A stretch of DNA of 51,397 nt. Origin: a virus. The position numbers and the translations under genes are program-made. Location: the IMG/VR virus record IMGVR_UViG_3300045988_030125, one strand, 5' to 3'. Shown piece after piece: positions 1 to 51,397 of the stretch (position 1 is the stretch's first letter; the number at the start of each line of letters is the position of its first letter). Below the pieces are notes generated by a model that did not search any database, had not been told where the DNA came from, and was given only the letters and a program-made list of their open reading frames with translations.

Positions 1-55
1 TACTGATAAGCTACCAGGGTCACCGCCCTAACCAATAACCAAACAAACAAACAAA
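1..55. repeat. 55-bp terminal identity, left copy (identical to 51343-51397)
   Basis: Direct comparison shows that the first 55 nt equal the last 55 nt. This length matches a common de Bruijn k-mer overlap for a circular contig. Confidence 0.95.
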
Positions 56-59
56 CAAA
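40..59 (+). repeat. (CAAA)x5 microsatellite
   Basis: Read directly: CAAACAAACAAACAAACAAA. Confidence 0.9.
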
Positions 60-96
60 GCAAAGACGCCGGCGTCAGGGCACACACACCAACCCA

Positions 97-225
97 GGGC
101 CTGTCGAACGTAACCGTAGGGGCCAGCTAACTCGTGTTAGCCAGGCTTTCGTGACCCGCCCCTGTCGAACGTACTAAGGGGGCTGTCGCACGCTAACCGA
201 GGCCCTGCCCTGTCGAACGTAACCT
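97..225 (+). repeat. Cluster of direct repeats with core CCTGTCGAACGTA (three exact cores plus one variant)
   Basis: CTGTCGAACGTA starts at 101, 162 and 210. The variant GCTGTCGCACGCTAACC lies at 182-197. A further copy of CTGTCGAAC starts at 51279. Confidence 0.85.
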
Positions 226-234
226 ACCCCGTGA

Positions 235-289
235 TGTGACGCAGAACACACCTTATCAAGTTGACAGCCACTTAGCGCCTAGCTAAGCT
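235..289 (+). promoter_or_regulatory. Promoter P1 with upstream CRP-like box
   Basis: TGTGA-cgcaga-ACACA lies at 235-250. TTGACA is at 261-266, followed by a 17-nt spacer and TAAGCT at 284-289. Confidence 0.6.
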
Positions 290-295
290 TGAGTT

Positions 296-573
296 ATCGG
301 CAAGGGAAACCCGGCAAGGACGCGAAAGCGACCGCCGAGACGGCCCGGGCGAGGACCTTAGTCCGAATGGTCTTTGTGAACTGAATTACACACAGGGGCG
401 AGGCTTGCACCTGCCGAAAAGTTGGCAACTTTTCCATCGCCTGTGTCGGCTAGGATGCGAACACGCTGAAACTTTACGTTCGGTCAGTAAAATAAGCGTG
501 CACACATGCCTAGGGCCGCTAGAATGACTTTGTACTGACAAAGTGGCGAGTTCAATTCTCGCACGGCTCACCA
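296..573 (+). ncRNA. Candidate structured non-coding RNA ending in a tRNA-like T-arm/acceptor/ACCA
   Basis: The region lies downstream of P1 and has no credible ORF. It contains hairpins GGGAAACCC (304-312) and CGCGAAAGCG (321-330), an 8-bp stem 416-423/427-434 and a long-range stem ACACAGG/CCTGTGT (about 389-395/440-446). It ends with T-arm GCGAG-TTCAATT-CTCGC (546-562), then ACGGCTC, A and CCA (563-573). Confidence 0.45.
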
Positions 574-591
574 AGATTCTGAACAACCAAA

Positions 592-647
592 TGTGACGCG
601 GTTCACACGCTGTCAGCTTGACACGGCCCCCAGGGGTCCGATAGACT
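592..647 (+). promoter_or_regulatory. Promoter P2 with perfect CRP-like box
   Basis: TGTGA-cgcggt-TCACA lies at 592-607. TTGACA is at 618-623, followed by an 18-nt spacer and TAGACT at 642-647. Confidence 0.65.
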
Positions 648-686
648 GTAGTCACAAGATCAAACCACACCGAAGGGTTACCTACC

Positions 687-911
687 ATGCTCATGCTGTC
701 CGATCCCACCACCAACCGCCTGCCCGTGCTCCCCCTGCCGTTCCCCGACTACAGCTGCCTTAAGCACTTCTTCTCGCACGTGCCCGGCTTCAGCACCTAT
801 GACGCCGCCAAGTGGGCACAGATCACCGAACGCGCGTGCTACGGCGACAGGGTGGCCCTCGCCCGCCTTGACGCGGCTGGGTTCTCCCTGATGGTCACCA
901 CGCGGCTCTGA
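687..911 (+). CDS. hypothetical early protein (74 aa), paralog of 2219-2452
   Basis: The ORF is in the track. GAAGGG lies 9 nt upstream of the ATG. The C-terminal half aligns by eye with the 2219-2452 product. Confidence 0.7.
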   Translation: MLMLSDPTTNRLPVLPLPFPDYSCLKHFFSHVPGFSTYDAAKWAQITERACYGDRVALARLDAAGFSLMVTTRL

Positions 912-919
912 CCCCCCTC

Positions 920-946
920 GCCCGGCCCCCTCACCCGGGGCCGGGC
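920..946 (+). terminator. GC-rich hairpin after the first early gene (no U-tract)
   Basis: GCCCGGCCCC (920-929) pairs with GGGGCCGGGC (937-946) around a 7-nt loop. Confidence 0.5.
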
Positions 947-974
947 ACCCTCCCTCCACACAACCAAGGAAGCA

Positions 975-1247
975 TTGTGTACAACCCGAACTTGCCCCCT
1001 TATCCGCGGCCTCAAGGGCGACTTTGAGGTCATTATCGACACGGGCGAGGTGCTTAACGTGACCAGCAACCCCCGGCTTGCTTGCTACTTGGCGCGCTCG
1101 CTTGACCTGCCTATGCCCCGCGCTGACTGCCTTGTCGAGTTGGTTCACAGCGCCTGTCGTGGCAGCGTGCGTGTCGTCGAACTACTAGCACGGATGGACT
1201 GGCAAATTATTCAGCTTGACGCCGATACCTTGCCGTTCACGGTGTGA
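975..1247 (+). CDS. hypothetical protein (90 aa, TTG start)
   Basis: The ORF is in the track, with SD AAGGAAG at 966-972. Confidence 0.6.
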   Translation: MCTTRTCPLIRGLKGDFEVIIDTGEVLNVTSNPRLACYLARSLDLPMPRADCLVELVHSACRGSVRVVELLARMDWQIIQLDADTLPFTV

Positions 1248-1298
1248 TCCACATCACAACCTAACAAGTTGACAACTACCTAGCACCGTTGCTAGGCT
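1243..1298 (+). promoter_or_regulatory. Promoter P3 with perfect CRP-like box
   Basis: TGTGA-tccaca-TCACA lies at 1243-1258. TTGACA is at 1269-1274, followed by an 18-nt spacer and TAGGCT at 1293-1298. Confidence 0.65.
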
Positions 1299-1335
1299 GA
1301 AAGCACAAACCAAACCACACAGAAAGTGAAACACC

Positions 1336-1509
1336 ATGGCACTCCAATACTGGAATGACTGCTTGCAAGCCGCGCGCGACTTTGCCGGTGATTCCGCTGG
1401 CGACTTCGTCATTGAGGCACTGGCATCTGAGCTTTTCGACTGGTGCCCGAATCAGACACCTACGTTGAGCGAGAGTACACAGACGCCGAGATTCAAGCGT
1501 GCGACGTGA
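1336..1509 (+). CDS. hypothetical 57-aa ORF, possibly the N-terminal part of a frameshifted 1336-1805 product
   Basis: I translated this by hand; it is below the track cutoff. The leader AGAAAGTGAAACACC precedes the ATG strongly. The N-terminal 35 aa look protein-like, but the tail looks off-frame. Confidence 0.55.
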   Translation: MALQYWNDCLQAARDFAGDSAGDFVIEALASELFDWCPNQTPTLSESTQTPRFKRAT

Positions 1510-1805
1510 GCACCTGGCAAGATACGTGCGAGCCTACCGAAGATGGTACCCTGCTGTATGAACGCTGGTTCCAGTCCCCGCTGGGACCGGTTCACGTGGG
1601 AGCGTGGGAGAACACCGACGGGCGCGTGTCGCTCACGCTTAGCACGGTGCGGGACGGCGGTTATGACATGTGGGAGCCTACCTCCAAGACCATCGCCGAC
1701 AGCGACAAGCCCTCCACGTGGGGCGAGTTTGACCGGGCCTACGGTTCTCGCAAAGCTTGGGAGTCCGATCTGGCTACTATCGCCGATACGATCCGCGAGT
1801 CTTGA
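1443..1805 (+). CDS. hypothetical protein (120 aa from a GTG lacking an SD)
   Basis: The ORF is in the track and its composition is protein-like. The frame opens at 1431 and has no RBS of its own. Confidence 0.6.
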   Translation: MPESDTYVEREYTDAEIQACDVSTWQDTCEPTEDGTLLYERWFQSPLGPVHVGAWENTDGRVSLTLSTVRDGGYDMWEPTSKTIADSDKPSTWGEFDRAYGSRKAWESDLATIADTIRES

Positions 1806-1817
1806 CACAACTCAACA

Positions 1818-1867
1818 TCCCCGTATCGATGGTGATATAAAGCCCGGTTCAACCCCGGGACGGGGAA
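1818..1867 (+). ncRNA. tRNA-like minihelix B (acceptor stem plus T-arm, about 50 nt)
   Basis: TCCCCGT (1818-1824) pairs with ACGGGGA (1860-1866). The T-arm is CCCGG-TTCAACC-CCGGG (1843-1859). A small stem carries the loop GATGGT. A hairpin follows at 1871-1890. Confidence 0.55.
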
Positions 1868-1919
1868 CGATGCCCCTCAAAACGAGGGCACAAACCAACA
1901 AACCGAAGGGTTAATTATC

Positions 1920-2183
1920 ATGGCACACACCTACAAGACCGATCCCGACTGGGTTAAGGAAGCACGCGGTGAAGCGTGGCACCCCTCCCAGTTCGCCCGC
2001 TACGGTAGCGGGTACACCCGCCACACGCGGGACCTGAGCAAGCGTATTCGCGCCAGGGAGCGTAGGGAGATGGACCGCATCATGCGTGACCTGGAAGCGT
2101 GGGAGGGCTACTACCCGACGGGTAACAGCGTGATTAGGGAGTTCGATACCGAGACCAACGCTCACGCTTGGATGGACTACTAG
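1920..2183 (+). CDS. hypothetical protein (87 aa)
   Basis: The ORF is in the track, preceded by a CA-rich leader with GAAGGG. Confidence 0.7.
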   Translation: MAHTYKTDPDWVKEARGEAWHPSQFARYGSGYTRHTRDLSKRIRARERREMDRIMRDLEAWEGYYPTGNSVIREFDTETNAHAWMDY

Positions 2184-2218
2184 GCCAACAGCCCGTCCCC
2201 ACACAGAAAGCCACAATT

Positions 2219-2452
2219 ATGTCCTACCGCACGTGTACAATAACAGACCATGTTCTGTACAATTTCGAGACGTTTCCCATCTATAACGGTGTAGTTGACC
2301 ATAAGTCGCTTTGCCGTTGGTTTGGGAGCATCCCCGGCTATGACGTGTTTAAGGCCGCGAAAATGGCGACTGCGACACAGCTTGTGCTTTTGGGAGACGC
2401 AAAACAAATGCGCGTGCTCACACAAGCTGGGTTTGACCTGACATTCAACTAA
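2219..2452 (+). CDS. hypothetical protein (77 aa), paralog of 687-911
   Basis: I moved the track ORF start to ATG 2219, which follows CACAGAAAG. The product resembles the 687-911 product by eye. Confidence 0.7.
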   Translation: MSYRTCTITDHVLYNFETFPIYNGVVDHKSLCRWFGSIPGYDVFKAAKMATATQLVLLGDAKQMRVLTQAGFDLTFN

Positions 2453-2483
2453 TCAACAACACAGAAAGACAAAGACAAAGACA

Positions 2484-2870
2484 ATGGGTATTCTTGACAA
2501 TATCAGCAGCGCCGCGTATGACATTATGGCGGGCCGTGTTGGCGATGGGTTCCTGCCTGTCGCTAAGAATTTCAACATCGCTGCGAATCACAACCACCCG
2601 ATTCGCAACAGCCGATTTGACGTTTATTCCTACACAACGCGCGTTGCAGTAGTGAACAAGAATGAGAATGGGGACTGGGACACTTTCGTACACCGTGATG
2701 CGTTCCATCATTCGACAACTACAAGCCGACACGTGCGCCAGTTCCTGTCGGCAATGGCTGGCCGTGTTGACTGGGACGCGCTTTACAAGGCGTGCAACAA
2801 AGCTTGTAAAGATGAAACTATTAACGGTAATGGTAACCCATTCGTCAATGTGAGCCAGTTCACGTACTAA
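2484..2870 (+). CDS. hypothetical protein (128 aa)
   Basis: The ORF is in the track, preceded by the leader CACAGAAAGACAAAG. Confidence 0.75.
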   Translation: MGILDNISSAAYDIMAGRVGDGFLPVAKNFNIAANHNHPIRNSRFDVYSYTTRVAVVNKNENGDWDTFVHRDAFHHSTTTSRHVRQFLSAMAGRVDWDALYKACNKACKDETINGNGNPFVNVSQFTY

Positions 2871-2903
2871 CAGCTTGACAACAACCAGCCAACCAGATAC
2901 TAT
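2849..2903 (+). promoter_or_regulatory. Promoter P4 with CRP-like box
   Basis: TGTGA-gccagt-TCACG lies at 2849-2864. TTGACA is at 2875-2880, followed by a 17-nt spacer and TACTAT at 2898-2903. Confidence 0.6.
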
Positions 2904-2944
2904 TAAGTCATAGGCAAACCACACAACAGAAAGCGAGAACTCAA

Positions 2945-3124
2945 ATGCGAATCAACAAGGACACTATGACCGTTATCAAGGCCGCTACCGCCGCTAAGAT
3001 TACCTTCCGAAAGATGGGAGCCGACTACGGCGATAATCCGAGTGTGCTTGCCGCTATTGACGCGGTGGTTACTGCCCTGGATGGGCTGTCGGATGCAGTA
3101 GTCATGTCAGAAATTGAGGGCTGA
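2945..3124 (+). CDS. hypothetical protein (59 aa)
   Basis: I translated this by hand; it is below the track cutoff. The leader CAGAAAGCGAGAAC precedes the ATG. Confidence 0.65.
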   Translation: MRINKDTMTVIKAATAAKITFRKMGADYGDNPSVLAAIDAVVTALDGLSDAVVMSEIEG

Positions 3125-3127
3125 GCA

Positions 3128-3322
3128 ATGGAACTAACTAATTCTCAACTTGACTTTATCCACATCGCACTTGAAGCGCATATTGAAGCACTCAATAATG
3201 AGCTTAGGGTTGTCAACGAACCACTCGTTACAGAGACAATTCAAGCGCGCATTGACGGTATTCTCCCTGTGCTTGAAGCTCTTGAGTCAGGTGACTACAC
3301 TCTCATTCTGGAAGAATACTAG
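3128..3322 (+). CDS. hypothetical protein (64 aa)
   Basis: The ORF is in the track and is tightly packed against the upstream ORF. Confidence 0.7.
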   Translation: MELTNSQLDFIHIALEAHIEALNNELRVVNEPLVTETIQARIDGILPVLEALESGDYTLILEEY

Positions 3323-3337
3323 GCCCTAGCAAGGGTA

Positions 3338-3386
3338 TCCCTAGCCTGACGGTAGGTAAATGCAGGTTCAACCCCTGCCTAGGGAG
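3338..3386 (+). ncRNA. tRNA-like minihelix C, structural homolog of element B
   Basis: TCCCTAG (3338-3344) pairs with CTAGGGA (3379-3385). The T-arm is GCAGG-TTCAACC-CCTGC (3362-3378). A small stem carries the loop GACGGT. A hairpin follows at 3391-3409. Confidence 0.55.
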
Positions 3387-3437
3387 CTGAGCTAACCAAG
3401 GTGGTTAGCCTACAACAACAACCGGAAGGTGAAAACC

Positions 3438-3902
3438 ATGTGCAATGAATACGCCTACAAGGTCGCTAAGGCCCTCGTTTGGCCCGAACTTACTGTTGAG
3501 TTTGCAGCGGCAGTGGTTAACGGCTGGGTGAACGGTAGTACCATTTGGGACGAAACTTGTACACTCACGGGTGGCTGGGGAAATGATGCAGCGGTGTTCC
3601 TTGCATGGGACAAGATGGGACGTCCCGATGAATCGGAATACCTGGACCCTGGCTACGATCTGGAACGGGACCCTGCCTGTCGCCGTAACATGGTCGCTAA
3701 TGCCCGCATCTCTGCTATGGCTGAGTGTGTGGCAGATGCACTATACAGCGTTGTTGACGAAATTATCGTGAACGAGGGCTGGAAGTGCATCCCCGCTACC
3801 GAAATTGAAACTGATATGCACGGCATTGGGTGGTTGGAGGAGGGCTGTGACGCCCTTGACTGCCATGTCGAAAGCTACCTGTTTAAGCCAGATGGGAGGT
3901 GA
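3438..3902 (+). CDS. hypothetical protein (154 aa)
   Basis: I moved the track ORF start to ATG 3438, which follows GGAAGGTGA. Confidence 0.75.
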   Translation: MCNEYAYKVAKALVWPELTVEFAAAVVNGWVNGSTIWDETCTLTGGWGNDAAVFLAWDKMGRPDESEYLDPGYDLERDPACRRNMVANARISAMAECVADALYSVVDEIIVNEGWKCIPATEIETDMHGIGWLEEGCDALDCHVESYLFKPDGR

Positions 3903-3904
3903 CC

Positions 3905-4417
3905 ATGCCTAGGGTAGAAAACTATAAGTTTGAGGCATTGGACGAAAACTATCAGGTAGATACGTACAATACCGCTAACATTTGCTCCAACACACTTATC
4001 CTTACACGCAAGCCAGAAATAGATATTTATTGGCTTTATTGCTGCTTACCCGAACATGGCTTTGTTTGGGTTACGCACTGGAAGATTTATACCTGCAAAG
4101 AGTTTGCCGAGTATATGCGTGAATACAAGGAAACATACAAGCGTTACCCGGAAAGAATCTGGGGGCACAAAATTAAGGAAGGAAGTAACATGTTGCCTAA
4201 TTGGTATGGTATCCCCGGTATCGGCTTTGAGTGGTGTGGTTCCCAAAATGACCCTATGTTGCACTACAAGGGGCATGTGTTTAACGCCCATGACATGCAA
4301 GATGGGTTGTGGGAGAACTATCGGGACGATTTAGAAATGGGCTATACGTCCCTTGAGTGGGAGGAATATGTCAGGGACAACGCAACTAACTACCTTGACG
4401 ATGCACTATTTTTTTGA
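3905..4417 (+). CDS. hypothetical protein (170 aa)
   Basis: The ORF is in the track. ATG 3905 follows GGGAGGTGA. Confidence 0.75.
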   Translation: MPRVENYKFEALDENYQVDTYNTANICSNTLILTRKPEIDIYWLYCCLPEHGFVWVTHWKIYTCKEFAEYMREYKETYKRYPERIWGHKIKEGSNMLPNWYGIPGIGFEWCGSQNDPMLHYKGHVFNAHDMQDGLWENYRDDLEMGYTSLEWEEYVRDNATNYLDDALFF

Positions 4418-4437
4418 GTGGGAGGAATGGTAACAAC

Positions 4438-4602
4438 ATGATTATGCTAGGTATTATTGGACTCGTTGTCGCTGTTGGGCTTATCTATATGGGCTTTAAG
4501 GGTGACTCTAACCTGACATGCTTCCTGGGTATCCTGTGTGGCGGGATGGTGGGACTCTGTAGGGTTATTCATATTCTTTACGTAATGGGGATGGAGAGTT
4601 AA
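4438..4602 (+). CDS. small membrane protein (54 aa, two hydrophobic helices)
   Basis: The ORF is in the track. ATG 4438 lies 10 nt after GGGAGGAA. The sequence is hydrophobic. Confidence 0.6.
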   Translation: MIMLGIIGLVVAVGLIYMGFKGDSNLTCFLGILCGGMVGLCRVIHILYVMGMES

Positions 4603-4603
4603 C

Positions 4604-4984
4604 ATGTGGGAAGAATTGCTGAGCGTCATTACTGACCGTTATTACCTGCTAGAATCTATGCAGGAAAACGTGGCTGGTTACATTGATCCTGACAAGGGCT
4701 GGGACCTGACACGTGTTAACCCTTGGTTTACCGAGCATGGCTATGAGTTTGTGGGTCTGCTTGACCTGTTCTCTGAAAACGAGGCAAGCGGTGTCTACGT
4801 GAACGTGGATGGTTACGTATGGCGTTGTCGCACTAATGCCGCTGACAATAGCATCTATTGGTACTGGGAGTCCAATAACGAGGGCGTTACCTTGGATGAA
4901 CTGCGCTTCCTGCATGGGTACGTGCACCAATTCATCTGGGACCAAGACGAACAAACGTGTAACGTAGTTCACATGGCAGAATGA
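4604..4984 (+). CDS. hypothetical protein (126 aa)
   Basis: The ORF is in the track, with SD GGAGAG. Confidence 0.75.
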   Translation: MWEELLSVITDRYYLLESMQENVAGYIDPDKGWDLTRVNPWFTEHGYEFVGLLDLFSENEASGVYVNVDGYVWRCRTNAADNSIYWYWESNNEGVTLDELRFLHGYVHQFIWDQDEQTCNVVHMAE

Positions 4985-5041
4985 CCAACAACCTGATAGA
5001 CTAGACACAACAAACCAACCAAGCGAAAGCGAGAAACAAAA

Positions 5042-5560
5042 ATGACCATCGAACTTACCCAGACTGAACACGCGCACACTGTCTATGTTCCCGACGAATG
5101 GGAGTACAACGGACAGACTTTCCAAGTGTGGCAGGATGACTGTGCAGAGTGCCCTATCAAGCAGCTTGACGATGCAAGCGCACTTTGCGTTATCGGTGGG
5201 CCACGTGGATGTATCCTCCACAACCCAGCCGACACTAATTGCCCCGCAATGTGGGAGTTTGATAACTTCCATGAAGAACACGGGCGCATCCTCACACAGG
5301 AAGAATGGGAGAATCTTTGCCCCGATTACTGGGTGTATGTTGGTTGGCACGCTATGGATGCTGAGCGTCTGTTTGCAGCAGCGTTCGACAAGGAAGTGTT
5401 CTCTACCAACCCTTGCGAGTCATGGGTGCATGAGTACTCTATGTGGGCAGACGGCTACGTCTGGGTAGTGTCGAACGAAACTACTGGGGACTGCCTGGCG
5501 GGTATCTATGCCGACAGCGAGGAAGATGCTATCCGAAACTACATCGAAAACTATATGTGA
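5042..5560 (+). CDS. hypothetical protein (172 aa)
   Basis: The ORF is in the track, preceded by the leader GCGAAAGCGAGAAAC. Confidence 0.8.
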   Translation: MTIELTQTEHAHTVYVPDEWEYNGQTFQVWQDDCAECPIKQLDDASALCVIGGPRGCILHNPADTNCPAMWEFDNFHEEHGRILTQEEWENLCPDYWVYVGWHAMDAERLFAAAFDKEVFSTNPCESWVHEYSMWADGYVWVVSNETTGDCLAGIYADSEEDAIRNYIENYM

Positions 5561-5562
5561 GA

Positions 5563-5718
5563 ATGATGGAAATTAAGGTTTGCGCGGTACTACTAATCGC
5601 ACTCGGCGTGTTCGCCCTTATTTCCTACAGTTTTACAGGCCATGCGCAGATGGTGTTCTATGGGACTATGGGCGTAACGGCTGGGACAATGACACTACTA
5701 CTCTACGAGGGAGAATGA
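5563..5718 (+). CDS. small membrane protein (51 aa)
   Basis: This uses the in-frame ATG of track ORF 5443-5718. The sequence is hydrophobic and the RBS is weak. Confidence 0.5.
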   Translation: MMEIKVCAVLLIALGVFALISYSFTGHAQMVFYGTMGVTAGTMTLLLYEGE

Positions 5719-5719
5719 C

Positions 5720-6031
5720 ATGATTCAGATTAACAACCTTGAAGCACTCAAAGACTTTGACACCGCCGTCGCGTACCGTGCCAAGGATTTGGGGCTTGAG
5801 CCGGGAGAATGGGACTTTGTCACTTGCAACGGCGCCCTCCAACTTTATGAGCACTACGAGGAAATGGCCGCTGATACGATGGATGGTATCGTATCGCCAA
5901 TTGAACTACTCGGCAAGGAATACAAGCCTAGCGACATTGCTAGGGAGGTAGACCCTGCTGGTTGGCAAGCGTTTGTCGAACTGGGCATTGCATTTGCCAT
6001 TGCTAACGATCTGGTTAGGAAGATCGTTTAA
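5720..6031 (+). CDS. hypothetical protein (103 aa)
   Basis: The ORF is in the track. Confidence 0.75.
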   Translation: MIQINNLEALKDFDTAVAYRAKDLGLEPGEWDFVTCNGALQLYEHYEEMAADTMDGIVSPIELLGKEYKPSDIAREVDPAGWQAFVELGIAFAIANDLVRKIV

Positions 6032-8117: not shown

Positions 8118-9533
8118 ATGACATTCAAGCCGCGCCACTACCAGGAACGTGTGCTGGAAGGGCTGGCAAACAGCAAAACGCCGTACACGGGCCTGGTAGG
8201 CGCGGGCCTAGGTACGGGCAAGACGGCAATGAGCGTGTGGAACGCGCTTAACGCTTTCGGTAGCACCATTGGGGACCAGATTATCCTGATCGTTGCCCCT
8301 GTCCGTACTGAGTCTGGCTGGCGCTCGCACTGGAAGACGCTTGCGGGCATCGACATGCGCACCTTGTCGGGGAAGAAAACAAAGGCCGCGCTTGCAGTGT
8401 GGGACGATCTTGAAAACCACGTCCCTGGTGTCTACTTCATCACATGGGAGCTTATGCGCTCACGTAACAAGGAACAGCGCTGGGACGGGCGCGCCAAGAA
8501 GATGGTGTACAAGTCCATGGCCCAGCCGTTCTATGGTGTCGAATTTGGGATGGTCATTGCCGATGAATGGCACCGCGCGTGCAACCATTCCTCGCTCAAC
8601 TTTGACGTAGCGCGACACATTAAGGCACAGTACCGCCTTGCGCTGAGTGCGACACCAGCGGGGAACAAGCCTTGTAACATTTGGGCAGCATTGAAGTTCT
8701 TGTGGCCTAACCATTACGGTGGATACTGGGACTTCTGTGAGAAGTTTTTTAAGGTTGAGCTTAACCCTTGGAGCGCATACTGGAAAGACTTTTCGGGAGA
8801 AAAGTACCCTGGCATGGTGCGTCGTGGCGCGCCGTCCTATCACGAGGTGAGCCAGGCTGAGGCCAACCCTGAGCTTCCTGGTGTCGTGATCCACCGTGTC
8901 GAAGTGGAGCTGACTAGGCAGCAGCGCAAACTTTACAACGAGCTGGAACAGAAGGCGCTCACGTTCCTAGGTGACCATCCGTTGGCGCTGTCGATCCCGA
9001 TGGAACTCGACACCCGCTTGCGTCAGATGACCCTGGGAGTACCTTCATTTAATGAAGACATGACTGTCGATTACAAGGAAGACTGCAAGTCGTCCAAGCT
9101 CGACGCCATGATGGACATTATCGCCGACCTCCCAGAGAATGAGCCTGTCGTTGTGTGGGTGCATAGCCAGAAGTTCATTAAGGCGGCGCTGCACCGTCTG
9201 AAGAAAGCTGGGATCAAAGCCATTGAAGTCTCTGGCAAGTCTCGTGGTGACTTCCAAGACATGATTAACGGCGACGTGCGCGTCATTGTCGCACAGCATG
9301 AAGCCATGTCAGAAGGAGTTGACGGTTTGCAGCGGGTGTGCCATACTGAGATATGGCTGAGCCAGTCAAACTCCCTGGTAATCAATGAGCAAGCAACGGG
9401 ACGACTCAACCGGCAGGGCCAGACTACAGTCGTTAACCGCTTCCTAATTCAGGCTACCAACACCGTGGACGACCGTGTTCTGGGACGCTTGCAGGAACGA
9501 TTCGACAAGCTCAAGGCATCCGGCCTTATCTGA
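8118..9533 (+). CDS. SNF2/DEAD-like superfamily-2 helicase
   Basis: The product has Walker A GLGTGKT, a DEWH box (VIADEWHR) and C-terminal helicase motifs (471 aa). Confidence 0.9.
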   Translation: MTFKPRHYQERVLEGLANSKTPYTGLVGAGLGTGKTAMSVWNALNAFGSTIGDQIILIVAPVRTESGWRSHWKTLAGIDMRTLSGKKTKAALAVWDDLENHVPGVYFITWELMRSRNKEQRWDGRAKKMVYKSMAQPFYGVEFGMVIADEWHRACNHSSLNFDVARHIKAQYRLALSATPAGNKPCNIWAALKFLWPNHYGGYWDFCEKFFKVELNPWSAYWKDFSGEKYPGMVRRGAPSYHEVSQAEANPELPGVVIHRVEVELTRQQRKLYNELEQKALTFLGDHPLALSIPMELDTRLRQMTLGVPSFNEDMTVDYKEDCKSSKLDAMMDIIADLPENEPVVVWVHSQKFIKAALHRLKKAGIKAIEVSGKSRGDFQDMINGDVRVIVAQHEAMSEGVDGLQRVCHTEIWLSQSNSLVINEQATGRLNRQGQTTVVNRFLIQATNTVDDRVLGRLQERFDKLKASGLI

Positions 9534-39017: not shown

Positions 39018-40043
39018 TTACTTAGATTCTACCAGCTTCACGATTCCGTTACTGTCTTGTTCAACGACGATCCTGCCGTGCAACAACTTGCCATCTTCAC
39101 CGAAGATCGAGCAAGCACCATCGAGGCGGGTCTGGCACAGGCCGACAGCCATAGCACCCGTCTCGGTCAGGTAGTAGTCATCGCCCTTGTACGACAGCCA
39201 GCCAGTACGCATAGCACCGTTTTCCTCAAGGTAGTACCACTTTCCCTTATCCAACTGCCAGCCGGTGAGCATCTGTCCCTTGTCGTTCAAGAGGAACCAA
39301 TGTTCGCCGTCCTTGATCCAGCCGGTCTCCATCTCACCATAGCGAGTGTCGTGGACATTGTGCAGGTAGTACCACTGACCATCAATGTGCTGCCAGCCGA
39401 CCTGCAACCAGCCACGGTCATTGGCGTAGTACCACTTCTCATTAACAGGGAACCAGCCAGTCTCCCACGAGCCGTCAGCAAGGCGGTACCACCAGCCGCC
39501 GTCCTGTGACACCCAGCCTTCCTTGTTGGACAGGTCAGCATCAAGGTTGTCGTAGTACTCCTGTGCCTTCTCGATGTACTCGCCAGCGTACTTATCACGC
39601 AAGGAAGCCGGGCAGGCAGTCGAGTAGAAGTCCGAGTGGGGGAACACATTGGAGCGCCACTCAGGGCGACCAAGACCATACGCTCGACAGATAGCAGCGG
39701 TCAGGTGGGCGCCCGCGTCGATGGTCTCATCCCCGACATCCCACCCGCCCTCAGCACCAGAGCAGTTTGCGTGCTCGATGCCGATACTCTTCTTGTTCAC
39801 ACCAGGGCAGTGCCATGCTGTGTCGGAATCATGTACGAATTGGCAAATGTTGCCGTCGATGTCAACGTTGTAATGGGCAGAAGTCCCATTATTAGTGAAG
39901 GCCCCATACACACCAGCATGTGTCATAGCCTCACCTGCGTTGTGGTGGATGACAACACGATCAAGGGCGAAACCACCTCGCCCTTCATCGAAGTTGTCGA
40001 TCCAGATGTTTTGATCGGCAATCAGATCAGTCCAACTAATCAT
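39018..40043 (-). CDS. endolysin: N-acetylmuramoyl-L-alanine amidase with C-terminal GW/WYY cell-wall-binding repeats
   Basis: The N-terminus resembles amidase_2/PGRP (VVIHHNAG, AHYNVD, SIGIEH). The C-terminus has at least six repeats of the type GW..(D/N)G.WYY. Confidence 0.9.
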   Translation of the reverse strand: MISWTDLIADQNIWIDNFDEGRGGFALDRVVIHHNAGEAMTHAGVYGAFTNNGTSAHYNVDIDGNICQFVHDSDTAWHCPGVNKKSIGIEHANCSGAEGGWDVGDETIDAGAHLTAAICRAYGLGRPEWRSNVFPHSDFYSTACPASLRDKYAGEYIEKAQEYYDNLDADLSNKEGWVSQDGGWWYRLADGSWETGWFPVNEKWYYANDRGWLQVGWQHIDGQWYYLHNVHDTRYGEMETGWIKDGEHWFLLNDKGQMLTGWQLDKGKWYYLEENGAMRTGWLSYKGDDYYLTETGAMAVGLCQTRLDGACSIFGEDGKLLHGRIVVEQDSNGIVKLVESK

Positions 40044-44469: not shown

Positions 44470-44540
44470 CTCCCAGACTAGGACTCGAACCTAGTCCGAC
44501 AGGGCCAAAACCTGCCGTGCTGCCATTACACTATCTGGGA
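44470..44540 (-). tRNA. tRNA-Gln (anticodon TTG)
   Basis: I folded the cloverleaf by hand. The acceptor is TCCCAGA/TCTGGGA, the anticodon loop TTTTGGC and the T-arm CTAGG-TTCGAGT-CCTAG. It is 71 nt long with no encoded CCA. Confidence 0.88.
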
Positions 44541-44611: not shown

Positions 44612-44684
44612 TCGGAATGGTGAGACTCGAACTCACGGCCCCCTGGTCCCAAACCAGGTGCGCTACCTACTGCGCTACATTCCG
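44612..44684 (-). tRNA. tRNA-Pro (anticodon TGG)
   Basis: I folded the cloverleaf by hand. The acceptor is CGGAATG/CATTCCG, the anticodon loop TTTGGGA and the T-arm GTGAG-TTCGAGT-CTCAC. It is 73 nt long. Confidence 0.9.
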
Positions 44685-44846: not shown

Positions 44847-44931
44847 TGGTCCCCTTGGTGAGAGTCGAACTCACACTCCTTTCGGAACTCGATTTTGAGT
44901 CGAGCGCGTCTGCCTGTTCCGCCACAAGGGG
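44847..44931 (-). tRNA. tRNA-Leu (anticodon CAA), type II with a long variable arm and encoded CCA
   Basis: I folded the cloverleaf by hand. The acceptor is CCCCTTG/CAAGGGG, the anticodon loop CTCAAAA, the variable arm TTCCGAAAGGAGT and the T-arm GTGAG-TTCGACT-CTCAC. It ends in ACCA. Confidence 0.88.
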
Positions 44932-51298: not shown

Positions 51299-51354
51299 TG
51301 TTACCCATTTCACACCATAAAAACCTTGACTTTCTCTCTCGATACTGATAAGCT
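51299..51354 (+). promoter_or_regulatory. Promoter P0 with CRP-like box; its -10 falls inside the 55-bp terminal identity
   Basis: TGTTA-cccatt-TCACA lies at 51299-51314. TTGACT is at 51326-51331, followed by a 17-nt spacer and TAAGCT at 51349-51354 (equivalent to positions 7-12). Confidence 0.5.
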
Positions 51355-51397
51355 ACCAGGGTCACCGCCCTAACCAATAACCAAACAAACAAACAAA
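51343..51397. repeat. 55-bp terminal identity, right copy
   Basis: It is identical to positions 1-55. Confidence 0.95.

What the first reader, a model, noticed from the sequence alone, without database searches (positions are those of the whole stretch)
1818..1867. tRNA-like acceptor/T-arm minihelix placed right after an early-gene stop codon (element B)
Thirteen nt after the stop of 1443-1805, TCCCCGT (1818-1824) pairs perfectly with ACGGGGA (1860-1866), forming a 7-bp acceptor-like stem.

CCCGG-TTCAACC-CCGGG (1843-1859) is a textbook tRNA T-arm. It has the G53:C61 closing pair and a loop of T54 T55 C56 R57 A58. A1867 sits where the discriminator base would be.

The 18 nt in between form only a 3-4 bp stem with the 6-nt loop GATGGT. 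There is no D-arm and no 7-nt anticodon loop, so this is not a tRNA gene.

Element C (3338-3386) has the same architecture and the same loops (TTCAACC, GAYGGT). Its acceptor and T stems have different sequences that still pair. This pattern of compensatory change is what selection on structure would produce.

Both elements are followed by a second hairpin and then the conserved CA-rich leader of the next gene. One hypothesis is that they act as RNase P/RNase Z/CCA-enzyme recognition modules that punctuate the early polycistronic mRNA. Another is that they act as decoys for tRNA-directed host factors.
Basis: partly seen in the sequence, partly recalled or inferred. Interest (0 to 1): 0.75.

Follow-up and report, generated by a model that had tools for sequence, protein, structure and literature searches.

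The report
Anticodon-less tRNA mimics between phage genes
Two 50-base elements between early genes of this uncultured phage fold like a tRNA with the anticodon arm cut out; the same element recurs hundreds of times, with compensating mutations, between genes of related phages, most likely as a cut-here signal that lets the host's tRNA-processing enzymes chop long phage messages into separate stable mRNAs.

Summary
Elements 1818-1867 and 3338-3386 fold as a 7-bp acceptor stem, a 3-bp hairpin with GG in its loop, a 5-6 nt linker and a canonical 5-bp T arm (UUCRAnY).

ARAGORN and Rfam call nothing there. A covariance model built from relatives scores the two elements at 63-66 bits.

In 63 related phage loci the model finds 115 copies, all on the sense strand. 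13 of 15 base pairs show double compensatory changes.

Each copy starts 5-21 nt after a stop codon and about 50 nt before the next start codon. A hairpin flanks it closely on each side. The trailer is R73-C74-G75, so CCA is avoided.

Other phage lineages carry arrays of 7-9 copies, about one per gene or gene pair. True genome hits lie on phage-sized contigs binned with oral Actinomyces, Rothia and Atopobium.

Best explanation (about 0.55): the elements are analogues of plant-mitochondrial t-elements. Host RNase P and RNase Z would cut out the mimic and leave mRNAs with hairpin-protected ends. No RNA-end data exist, so cleavage is inferred.

I found no Rfam family and no paper describing this in phages. 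I rate it a new variant of a known kind.

The parts
1797..1813 (+). Hairpin 1 of cassette B. It is a weak 4-bp stem, GAGT/ACTC, whose loop contains the upstream gene's stop codon TGA 1803-1805. It ends 4 nt before the element.
   Evidence: Direct reading. The same position in relatives carries stronger, covarying hairpins such as GAAGACTAATTAAGTCTTC and ATTAGGCAGTCCTAAT. Among 197 distinct copies, hairpin 1 ends 0-5 nt before N1 in 76%, against 52% in controls.
1818..1867 (+). tRNA-like element B. Acceptor stem 1818-1824/1860-1866; D-like hairpin 1825-1836 (ATC-GATGGT-GAT); linker 1837-1842; T arm 1843-1859; discriminator A1867.
   Evidence: R1 scores it 62.7 bits, E 4e-14. No ARAGORN or Rfam call.
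1868..1890 (+). Trailer CGA (1868-1870, not CCA) followed by hairpin 2 (1871-1890).
   Evidence: Fold. N74 is C in 90% and N75 is C in only 2% of 185 distinct copies. Hairpin 2 most often starts 3 nt after N74.
1891..1922 (+). CA-rich leader, Shine-Dalgarno-like GAAGGG, and the ATG (1920) of the conserved gene MAHTYKTDP.
   Evidence: The element lies 44-59 nt upstream of this gene in 46 of 47 loci.
3323..3336 (+). Hairpin 1 of cassette C (GCCCT-AGCA-AGGGT). It begins right after the stop codon TAG 3320-3322 and ends 1 nt before the element.
   Evidence: Fold. Covarying equivalents in relatives include GTCCCACATGGGAC, CCTAGTCAACTAGG and GTTCCTAACGGAAC.
3338..3386 (+). tRNA-like element C. Acceptor stem 3338-3344/3379-3385; D-like hairpin CCT-GACGGT-AGG; linker TAAAT; T arm GCAGG-TTCAACC-CCTGC; discriminator G3386.
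   Evidence: R1 scores it 65.9 bits, E 6e-15.
3387..3409 (+). Trailer CTGA followed by hairpin 2 (GCTAACCA-AGG-TGGTTAGC, 3391-3409).
   Evidence: Fold. Conserved and covarying in relatives, for example GCTAACCACCTTGGTTAGC and GCTGACAACAGGTCAGC.
3410..3440 (+). CA-rich leader, SD-like GGAAGG, and the ATG (3438) of the gene MCNEYAYK.
   Evidence: The element is present upstream in 13 of 13 loci that have this gene.
513..573 (+). Related element A. Acceptor GGGCCG/CGGCTC, no D-arm, a covarying middle hairpin, T arm GCGAG-TTCAATT-CTCGC, and discriminator A followed by an encoded CCA.
   Evidence: A promoter-like CTGAAA-16-TAAAAT lies at 466-493.
44470..44540 (-). The phage's own tRNA-Gln (UUG), a possible progenitor. 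It shares the UCCC...GGGA acceptor top, an AAUGGC D-loop, G73 and a CCA-less C74-G75 trailer.
   Evidence: It is the third-best R1 hit in the window at 22.3 bits. Trailers are listed.

Best explanation
B and C belong to a family of sense-strand RNA elements inside early operons. Each mimics the upper half and elbow of a tRNA: a 7-bp acceptor stem stacked on a 5-bp T stem, a canonical T loop, and a short D-like hairpin supplying the GG that docks on the T loop. The anticodon arm is replaced by a 5-7 nt linker.

Proposed mechanism (inferred, not shown):
1. Host RNase P cuts at the 5' side of N1.
2. A 3' tRNA-processing nuclease, most likely RNase Z because the trailer is never CCA, cuts after the purine discriminator.
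3. The upstream mRNA then ends in hairpin 1 plus 0-4 nt, which would resist 3' exonucleases.
4. The downstream mRNA begins with about 3 unpaired nt followed by hairpin 2, which would resist attack that depends on a free 5' end.
5. A roughly 49-nt tRNA-like RNA is released and is probably CCA-tailed.

The cassette of hairpin, tRNA mimic and hairpin would therefore punctuate polycistronic early transcripts into discrete, stable mRNAs. This is the job RNase III sites do in T7 and that tRNAs and t-elements do in mitochondria.

What is shown: the structure, selection on it, its strand, its position, the flanking hairpins and the avoidance of CCA. What is inferred: cleavage, the enzymes involved and the stabilising effect.
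For: Structure under selection:
- 98.3% of cells paired and 13 of 15 pairs with double changes; 0 of 500 shuffles reach any measure.
- RNAalifold gives a covariation term of -4.3 kcal/mol.
- 25 G-U pairs occur on the sense strand.
- The T loop is invariant at G53, T54, T55, C56 and A58, and the loop GG is at least 90% conserved. These are the elbow contacts.
- 7/5 stem geometry in every full-length match: model positions 1-50 were matched by 113 of the 115 hits.

RNA-level, cis position:
- 115 of 115 copies in 63 loci are on the sense strand.
- About 100 of 114 start 5-21 nt after a stop codon, and the next ORF start is commonly 44-59 nt downstream.
- No intrinsic terminator lies near B or C on the + strand. 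The consensus scan finds no promoter between either element and the next start codon, and only about 25-30 nt of CA-rich leader lies between hairpin 2 and that codon, so the downstream genes must be co-transcribed.

Punctuation pattern:
- L111 and L075 carry 7-9 copies, one after almost every gene or gene pair.

End-protection design:
- Flanks are more stable than random segments from the same loci (p about 1e-13 and 1e-10).
- Hairpin 1 most often ends 1 nt before N1, and hairpin 2 most often starts 3 nt after N74.

Processing signature:
- N73 is a purine in 96%, N74 is C in 90%, and N75 is C in only 2%.
- The same R-C-G trailer follows the phage's own CCA-less tRNA-Gln and tRNA-Pro.

Functional interchange:
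- In L015 the slot upstream of the MAHTYKTDP gene holds a TTGACA...TAGACT promoter instead of the element. Either way a 5' end is created in front of the same CA-rich leader.
- In L049 a 72-nt cloverleaf-like sequence fills such a slot.

Acceptor sequences vary within arrays (UCCC..., UCGCGGG, GCGCGGG, GCCCGCC). This argues for recognition of shape rather than of one tRNA identity.

Precedent: plant-mitochondrial t-elements are cut by RNase P and RNase Z, are CCA-tailed and are not aminoacylated (PMC1920247, PMC11658184).

From established knowledge, not tested here: acceptor/T-arm minihelices are substrates for RNase P and for the CCA-adding enzyme, and CCA is an anti-determinant for RNase Z.
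Against: - There are no RNA 5'/3' end data, no enzyme assay and no cultured phage or host.
- A hairpin only 0-4 nt upstream could hinder the RNase P protein, which binds a single-stranded 5' leader.
- N1 is U rather than the usual G.
- In the window's clade the top four acceptor pairs (U1-A72, C2-G71, C3-G70, C4-G69) are at least 90% conserved while the lower three vary freely. Pure shape recognition does not explain this.
- The copies are phylogenetically related, so the counts overstate the number of independent events.
- My scans selected for pairing, which inflates the percentage paired, though not the variety of pair types.
- The host assignment rests on MAG binning and on endolysin domains only.
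Confidence: 0.55

Rival explanations
1. Trans-acting decoy or sponge. The excised, CCA-tailed mimics (and element A, which has an encoded CCA) accumulate early. They would titrate a host factor that reads the tRNA acceptor end and elbow. Candidates are a defence toxin that modifies or cleaves tRNA 3' ends, or an enzyme that reads U1-A72 plus the D-loop, such as GatCAB. Processing would then be only the release step.
For: - The top four acceptor pairs and the purine discriminator are at least 90% conserved while the rest of the stems vary.
- There are several copies per genome, up to 9.
- They are located among early genes.
- The acceptor top and D-loop resemble the phage's tRNA-Gln.
- Element A carries an encoded CCA and has a promoter-like site just upstream.
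Against: - Acceptor sequences differ within a single array (UCCC, UCGCGGG, GCGCGGG).
- The tight coupling to stop codons, to flanking hairpins and to the next gene's leader is not needed for a decoy.
- A promoter can replace the element.
- Plant t-elements are CCA-tailed yet have no known trans role.
Confidence: 0.15
2. Cis-acting structural barrier or insulator without cleavage. The compact three-way junction and its neighbouring hairpins would block exonucleases, uncouple translation of neighbouring genes, or hinder Rho, without being cut by tRNA enzymes.
For: - Intergenic, sense-strand position with stable flanking hairpins.
- Stop codons lie inside or beside hairpin 1.
Against: - A barrier does not need a canonical T loop, a GG partner, exact 7/5 stem geometry, a purine discriminator or avoidance of CCA.
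- Ordinary hairpins already do this job elsewhere in the same region, for example at 919-947.
Confidence: 0.12
3. Binding site for a phage-encoded RNA-binding protein, for example a translational or stability regulator. The arginine-rich product of the gene that always follows B would be a candidate.
For: - The MAHTYKTDP gene follows the element in 46 of 47 loci.
- Its product is rich in Arg.
- The early proteins have no known families.
Against: - Other clades with arrays do not show one constant neighbouring gene.
- The conserved features are exactly the universal tRNA elbow and acceptor features. This points to host tRNA enzymes rather than a private protein.
Confidence: 0.08
4. DNA-level role or decay. 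The elements would be short repeats serving as recombination junctions for shuffling early-gene modules, or decaying tRNA pseudogenes with no function.
For: - The same acceptor types appear at different gene junctions, and different genes follow C-type copies.
- The window's tRNA-Gln is a plausible ancestor.
Against: - 115 of 115 copies are on the sense strand.
- G-U pairs would be A-C mismatches on the other strand.
- Compensatory changes are pervasive.
- The architecture is constant, with the anticodon arm missing from most copies; a few longer variants keep an extra hairpin there (L080:6055-6113, L139:13011-13068).
- Syntenic retention is 46 of 47.
Confidence: 0.05

Closest known systems
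Plant-mitochondrial t-elements (Forner et al. 2007, PMC1920247; PMC11658184). By my recollection there are also tRNA-like elements in Haloferax volcanii; that paper was not read here.
   Same: Non-canonical tRNA-like structures that keep the GGTTCRANYCC T arm. They are embedded in mRNA precursors next to coding regions and have no encoded CCA. In plants they are cut by RNase P and RNase Z to define mRNA ends. They are CCA-tailed and not aminoacylated.
   Different: The phage elements are not homologous to them and occur in phages of bacteria. They have a uniform architecture, a clean loss of the anticodon arm with the D-loop GG retained. They are packaged between two closely apposed hairpins and occur as regular arrays along operons. 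Their cleavage has not been shown.
tRNA punctuation of animal mitochondrial transcripts, and tRNA genes inside bacterial or phage operons
   Same: tRNA-shaped units between coding regions, acting as signals for RNase P and RNase Z.
   Different: Those are functional, decoding tRNAs. These elements have no anticodon arm and cannot decode.
mascRNA / MEN-beta tRNA-like elements (Rfam RF01684)
   Same: A tRNA-like module whose excision by RNase P and RNase Z creates the 3' end of the upstream RNA. One longer variant, L080:6055-6113, gives a sub-threshold match of 31.6 bits against a gathering score of 42.5.
   Different: Those are eukaryotic and nuclear and keep an anticodon-like stem. B and C give no match at E<=10.
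RNase III processing sites between phage T7 early genes
   Same: The proposed job is the same: cutting polycistronic early mRNA into stable units that end in hairpins.
   Different: The structure is entirely different (a long double-stranded hairpin with an internal loop) and so is the enzyme.
tRNA-like domains of tmRNA and of bacterial Y RNA (YrlA, PMC4201824)
   Same: An acceptor/T-arm/D-loop elbow mimic that lacks a decoding anticodon arm.
   Different: tmRNA has a tag ORF, pseudoknots, G3:U70 and an encoded CCA. YrlA has its ends in a Ro-binding stem and lies next to rsr. None of these features is present here, and ARAGORN and Rfam find neither.

Membership tests
Canonical tRNA gene (Rfam RF00005 / ARAGORN) | Four-arm cloverleaf with a 5-bp anticodon stem and a 7-nt anticodon loop | tested here: not met
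   ARAGORN and Rfam call only the three real tRNAs at 44.4-44.9 kb. Nothing is called at 1818 or 3338, even at E<=10. 0 of 60 family members are called by ARAGORN. Only 17-18 nt lie between the acceptor and T stems.
Canonical tRNA gene (Rfam RF00005 / ARAGORN) | 7-bp acceptor stem contiguous with a 5-bp T stem, a T54-Psi55-C56-R57-A58 loop, and G18-G19 in the D loop | tested here: met
t-element-type tRNA-like processing signal (functional class) | tRNA-like fold with a conserved T arm, on the sense strand of an mRNA precursor next to coding regions | tested here: met
   115 of 115 copies are on the sense strand. They lie 5-21 nt after stop codons and about 50 nt before the next start codon.
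t-element-type tRNA-like processing signal (functional class) | Cleavage at the 5' end by RNase P and at the 3' end by RNase Z, followed by CCA tailing | not testable with these tools
   Only indirect evidence is available: a purine at N73, avoidance of CCA, the same R-C-G trailer as the phage's CCA-less tRNAs, and flanking hairpins.
t-element-type tRNA-like processing signal (functional class) | Descent from plant organellar tRNAs (family membership by homology) | tested here: not met
   The elements are in phage genomes, and their nearest sequence relative is the phage's own tRNA-Gln. The relationship is analogy, not homology.
tmRNA tRNA-like domain | Split acceptor enclosing a tag ORF and pseudoknots, with an encoded CCA | tested here: not met
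   ARAGORN finds no tmRNA. The element is 49-50 nt long and the trailer is CGA or CTG.
Bacterial Y RNA (YrlA) | Ro-binding stem carrying the RNA ends, and a neighbouring rsr gene | tested here: not met
   No Rfam hit. The scanned proteins include no Ro/TROVE domain.
Intrinsic terminator | GC-rich hairpin followed by a U tract on the transcribed strand | tested here: not met
   No terminator-like site lies on the + strand near B or C. The only hit at 1843-1859 is on the - strand, and it is the T arm read backwards.
mascRNA-menRNA (RF01684) | Score at or above the Rfam gathering threshold of 42.5 bits | tested here: not met
   There is no hit for B or C. One longer relative scores 31.6 bits.

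The most novel reading that the evidence does not exclude
The phage makes a set of anticodon-less tRNA mimics that are cut out of early mRNAs and CCA-tailed by host enzymes. They then act in trans as decoys for a host factor that reads the tRNA acceptor end and elbow. The factor could be a defence toxin that targets tRNA 3' ends, or the tRNA-Gln-specific machinery that reads U1-A72 and the D-loop. The cassette would then do two jobs at once: mRNA punctuation and neutralising a host function.
Probability: 0.15. Interest if true: 0.9.

Novelty: new variant of a known kind. Interest (0 to 1): 0.74.

Why it matters
If cleavage is confirmed, some phages would have adopted the mitochondrial 'tRNA punctuation' strategy using purpose-built, non-decoding tRNA mimics. 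That would be a new class of phage mRNA-processing signal alongside T7's RNase III sites.

It would define a compact natural cassette of about 100 nt (hairpin, mimic, hairpin) for splitting operons into stable mRNAs using universal host enzymes, which is of obvious use in synthetic biology.

The family is large, shows strong covariation and is absent from Rfam, so it can become a curated RNA family immediately.

It also offers a natural series of minimal substrates, an acceptor/T-arm stack plus a D-loop GG, for studying what RNase P, RNase Z and the CCA-adding enzyme actually need.

Finally, tRNA finders miss these elements, so intergenic regions that carry them are currently left unannotated.

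Tried and rejected
- Near-identity search of 1-6000 against cultured phages found nothing. The primase is only about 27% identical to those of Arthrobacter and Microbacterium phages, so no cultured relative and no published transcriptome is available.
- BLAST of nine concatenated element variants against cultured phages gave only T-arm matches to mycobacteriophage tRNA-Trp and one unannotated spot in Xanthomonas phage DoCa6. R1 and ARAGORN showed that spot to be only a T-arm-like fragment, not a family member.
- Inserting the phage tRNA-Gln anticodon arm into the linker made ARAGORN of 60 elements as tRNAs. Elements with a shuffled middle region were called 15-26 of 60 times, so the test does not discriminate. 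I do not use it as evidence for the D-arm.
- Pfam and PHROGs scans of 30 and 10 window proteins found no phage RNase P, RNase Z, CCA-adding enzyme, Ro or RNA ligase. I did not scan every small ORF.
- Looking up contigs that encode the gene after B, in the hope of finding transcript-like contigs ending at the element, returned only phage contigs of about 51 kb.
- Six literature searches found no description of such elements in phages. A catalogue of 10,006 viral candidate RNAs mentions tRNA-like candidates only generically and might contain this motif unnamed.
- The motif count for GTTCRANYC alone is not significant (11 found against 7 expected). The T-loop motif by itself proves nothing.

Full report
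**What the window is**

The window is a circularly assembled phage genome of about 51.3 kb with a 55-nt terminal overlap. Early and replication genes lie on the + strand from 0.6 to 19 kb. They include an SNF2 helicase, a deaminase, an AAA_24 ATPase, DUF669, a primase and a family A DNA polymerase. Structural and lysis genes lie on the - strand.

The genome has no near relative among cultured phages. Its primase is about 27% identical to those of Arthrobacter and Microbacterium phages. The endolysin combines Amidase_2 with choline-binding cell-wall repeats.

True family hits in bacterial genome collections lie only on contigs of 21-52 kb. These are binned with uncultured Actinomyces (three), Rothia (one) and Atopobium (one). 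One weaker hit lies in the Rikenella microfusus chromosome. The host is therefore probably an oral actinobacterium. This is an inference from binning and from the endolysin domains.

**Checking the observation**

Both elements fold into the stated structure, though the single-sequence z-scores are weak. ARAGORN and Rfam find only the three real tRNAs (Gln, Pro, Leu at 44.4-44.9 kb) and nothing at B or C, even at E<=10. B and C differ by eight double substitutions that preserve pairing.

**Comparative evidence**

Using the SNF2 helicase (8118-9530) as bait I fetched 63 related IMG/VR loci at 71-96% amino-acid identity. A simple structural scan, and then a covariance model (R1) built from 60 distinct copies (alignment A2), gave these results.
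- The window has only two strong matches, B at 62.7 bits and C at 65.9 bits. The next match is the phage's own tRNA-Gln at 22 bits.
- The 63 loci contain 115 matches, every one on the sense strand.
- On the MAFFT alignment, which was not fitted to the structure, 98.3% of cells pair and 13 of 15 pairs show changes on both sides. No shuffle out of 500 reaches any measure, and sliding the partners drops pairing to 30-62%.
- RNAalifold independently recovers the acceptor and T stems and a small hairpin one register off.
- There are 25 G-U pairs on the sense strand, which argues for an RNA structure on that strand.

Caveat: the copies are related to each other, and my scan required pairing. The percentage paired is therefore inflated. 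The variety of pair types is not.

**Anatomy**

- The acceptor stem has 7 bp and runs directly into a 5-bp T stem.
- The T loop is UUCRAnY, with G53, T54, T55, C56 and A58 invariant.
- Directly after the 5' acceptor strand comes a 3-4 bp hairpin. Its stem covaries (CCU/AGG, CUU/GAG, CAU/AUG, AUC/GAU, CCUC/GAGG) and its loop holds a GG that is at least 90% conserved.
- I read this hairpin as a reduced D-arm supplying G18-G19 for the elbow.
- The 5-7 nt linker is about what remains of a tRNA (position 26 plus the variable loop) once the anticodon arm is removed.
- The element is therefore a tRNA without its anticodon arm.
- An attempt to show this by re-inserting an anticodon arm and running ARAGORN did not discriminate against a shuffled control.

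**Context**

- About 100 of 114 copies begin 5-21 nt after the stop codon of the upstream ORF.
- The gene that follows B (MAHTYKTDP) occurs in 47 loci, and 46 of them have the element 44-59 nt upstream. The gene that follows C (MCNEYAYK) has it in 13 of 13 loci.
- Immediately 5' of the element is a covarying hairpin that often contains the stop codon. Immediately 3' is a trailer beginning with C, then a second covarying hairpin, then a CA-rich leader, a Shine-Dalgarno-like site and the ATG.
- Both flanks are more stable than random segments from the same loci.
- Hairpin 1 most often ends 1 nt before N1, and hairpin 2 most often starts 3 nt after N74.
- Over 185 distinct copies, N73 is a purine in 96%, N74 is C in 90%, N75 is G or U, and N75 is C in only 2%. 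CCA is therefore avoided.
- The phage's two CCA-less tRNAs have the same R-C-G trailer.
- No + strand terminator lies nearby. There is no promoter between the element and the next gene. Strong promoter-like sites at 618-647 and 2875-2903, plus weaker ones read at 261-289 and 1269-1298, place B and C inside operons.

**Breadth**

A pattern scan of IMG/VR, followed by scoring with R1, shows the same architecture in other phage lineages. L075 and L111 carry 7-9 copies spaced one per gene or gene pair, in the layout ORF, 8-27 nt, element, about 50 nt, ORF. L080, L139, L073, L095 and L091 carry 3-4 copies each.

Within these arrays the acceptor sequences differ: UCCC..., UCGCGGG, GCGCGGG and GCCCGCC. 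The terminase of L080 weakly resembles those of Gordonia and Streptomyces phages. The pattern scan required UCCC...GGGA, so the true breadth is underestimated.

**Mechanism**

The conserved features are exactly those read by the enzymes that process tRNA ends. These are the 12-bp acceptor/T stack, the T-loop/D-loop elbow, a purine discriminator and a non-CCA trailer.

From established knowledge, not tested here:
- Minihelices are substrates of RNase P and of the CCA-adding enzyme.
- RNase Z is blocked by CCA.

Excision would leave the upstream mRNA ending in a hairpin with a very short tail. The downstream mRNA would begin with about 3 free nt before a hairpin. These are geometries known to hinder 3' exonucleases and 5'-end-dependent decay (established knowledge; inferred here).

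Two natural 'swaps' fit this reading. In L015 a promoter occupies the slot of the element in front of the same leader. In L049 a 72-nt cloverleaf-like sequence occupies such a slot; ARAGORN calls it tRNA-Pro but Rfam does not match it.

No phage-encoded tRNA-processing enzyme was found, so host enzymes would do the work. I put this explanation at about 0.55.

**What it does not explain**

In the window's clade the top four acceptor pairs (U1-A72, C2-G71, C3-G70, C4-G69) are at least 90% conserved while the lower three pairs and the T stem vary freely. This could reflect descent from the phage tRNA-Gln, which shares the UCCC/GGGA top, an AAUGGC D loop and a CTAGG T stem with some copies. It could reflect a requirement of the cleavage enzymes. 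Or it could reflect a trans role for the released RNA as a decoy. This keeps the decoy reading alive at about 0.15.

**Comparison with known systems**

The closest functional analogues are plant-mitochondrial t-elements. These are tRNA-like, sit at mRNA ends, are cut by RNase P and RNase Z, are CCA-tailed and are not aminoacylated (PMC1920247, PMC11658184). Other analogues are mitochondrial tRNA punctuation and mascRNA. One longer relative gives a sub-threshold Rfam match to mascRNA-menRNA.

The phage elements are not homologous to any of these. They differ in their uniform anticodon-arm deletion, the two-hairpin packaging and the regular arrays.

They are not tRNA genes, tmRNA, Y RNA or terminators (see the membership table). 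Six full-text searches found no description in phages. A large catalogue of viral candidate RNAs may include the motif unnamed.

**Verdict**

The feature is real, strongly selected and widespread. It is a new variant of a known kind, a tRNA-like processing signal, and its cleavage still has to be shown.

Noticed in passing
window 513-573 (+), with a promoter-like site at 466-493: Element A is a third tRNA-like element. It has a G1 acceptor (GGGCCG/CGGCTC), no D-arm, a middle hairpin that covaries among relatives (CTTTG..CAAAG against CCGCGC..GCGCGG), a canonical T arm and an encoded ACCA. A T-run follows it in some relatives. It looks like a separately transcribed small RNA rather than an intercistronic cassette.
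   Followed up: partly
L015:314-446: In this one relative the slot upstream of the MAHTYKTDP gene holds a TTGACA-N17-TAGACT promoter instead of the tRNA-like cassette. The same CA-rich leader follows it.
   Followed up: partly
L049:3573-3644 (+): A 72-nt cloverleaf-like sequence sits in a typical element slot, just after a stop codon and about 40 nt before the next ATG. ARAGORN calls it tRNA-Pro CGG, but Rfam tRNA does not match it at E<=0.1. It may be an intermediate between a tRNA gene and the reduced element.
   Followed up: partly
L075:887-4979 and L111:906-5489 (-): Arrays of 7-9 elements punctuate nearly every gene or gene pair. They lie in a different, GC-richer phage lineage whose leaders are GT/GA-rich rather than CA-rich.
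   Followed up: partly
L080:6055-6113 (-): A longer variant with an extra hairpin gives a sub-threshold match to Rfam mascRNA-menRNA (31.6 bits, gathering score 42.5).
   Followed up: no
window 100-114, 161-174, 209-223 (+): Three direct copies of CCTGTCGAACGTA(A)C lie upstream of the first early promoter. They could be a protein-binding, origin or packaging repeat.
   Followed up: no
window 261-289, 618-647, 1269-1298, 2875-2903 (+): A series of TTGACA-N17/18-TAnnnT promoter-like sites. Each is followed by a CA-rich leader resembling the leaders downstream of the tRNA-like cassettes.
   Followed up: partly
window 44470-44540 and 44612-44684 (-): The phage's tRNA-Gln and tRNA-Pro lack an encoded CCA and have C74-G75 trailers like the elements. 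tRNA-Leu (44847-44931) does encode CCA.
   Followed up: partly
window 39018-40043 (-): The endolysin combines Amidase_2 with choline-binding cell-wall repeats, which points to a Gram-positive host.
   Followed up: partly
window 919-947 (+): A very GC-rich hairpin without a U tract lies between the first two early ORFs. It is a plain hairpin in a position where other junctions carry the tRNA-like cassette.
   Followed up: no
window 1-55 and 51343-51397: A 55-nt terminal direct overlap shows that the window is a circularly closed assembly of a complete genome of about 51.3 kb.
   Followed up: yes
L089:6353-6402, L076:3959-4008, L106:7619-7667, L070:3860-3908, L067:4423-4470: Single copies of a similar anticodon-less tRNA-like element (TCCCGCG-CCCGGCACGGCC...GAAGG-TTCGACC-CCTTC-GGCGGGA) occur in AT-rich contexts on viral contigs of 70-100 kb. 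No tRNA genes lie nearby. Their relation to the family and their function were not examined.
   Followed up: no
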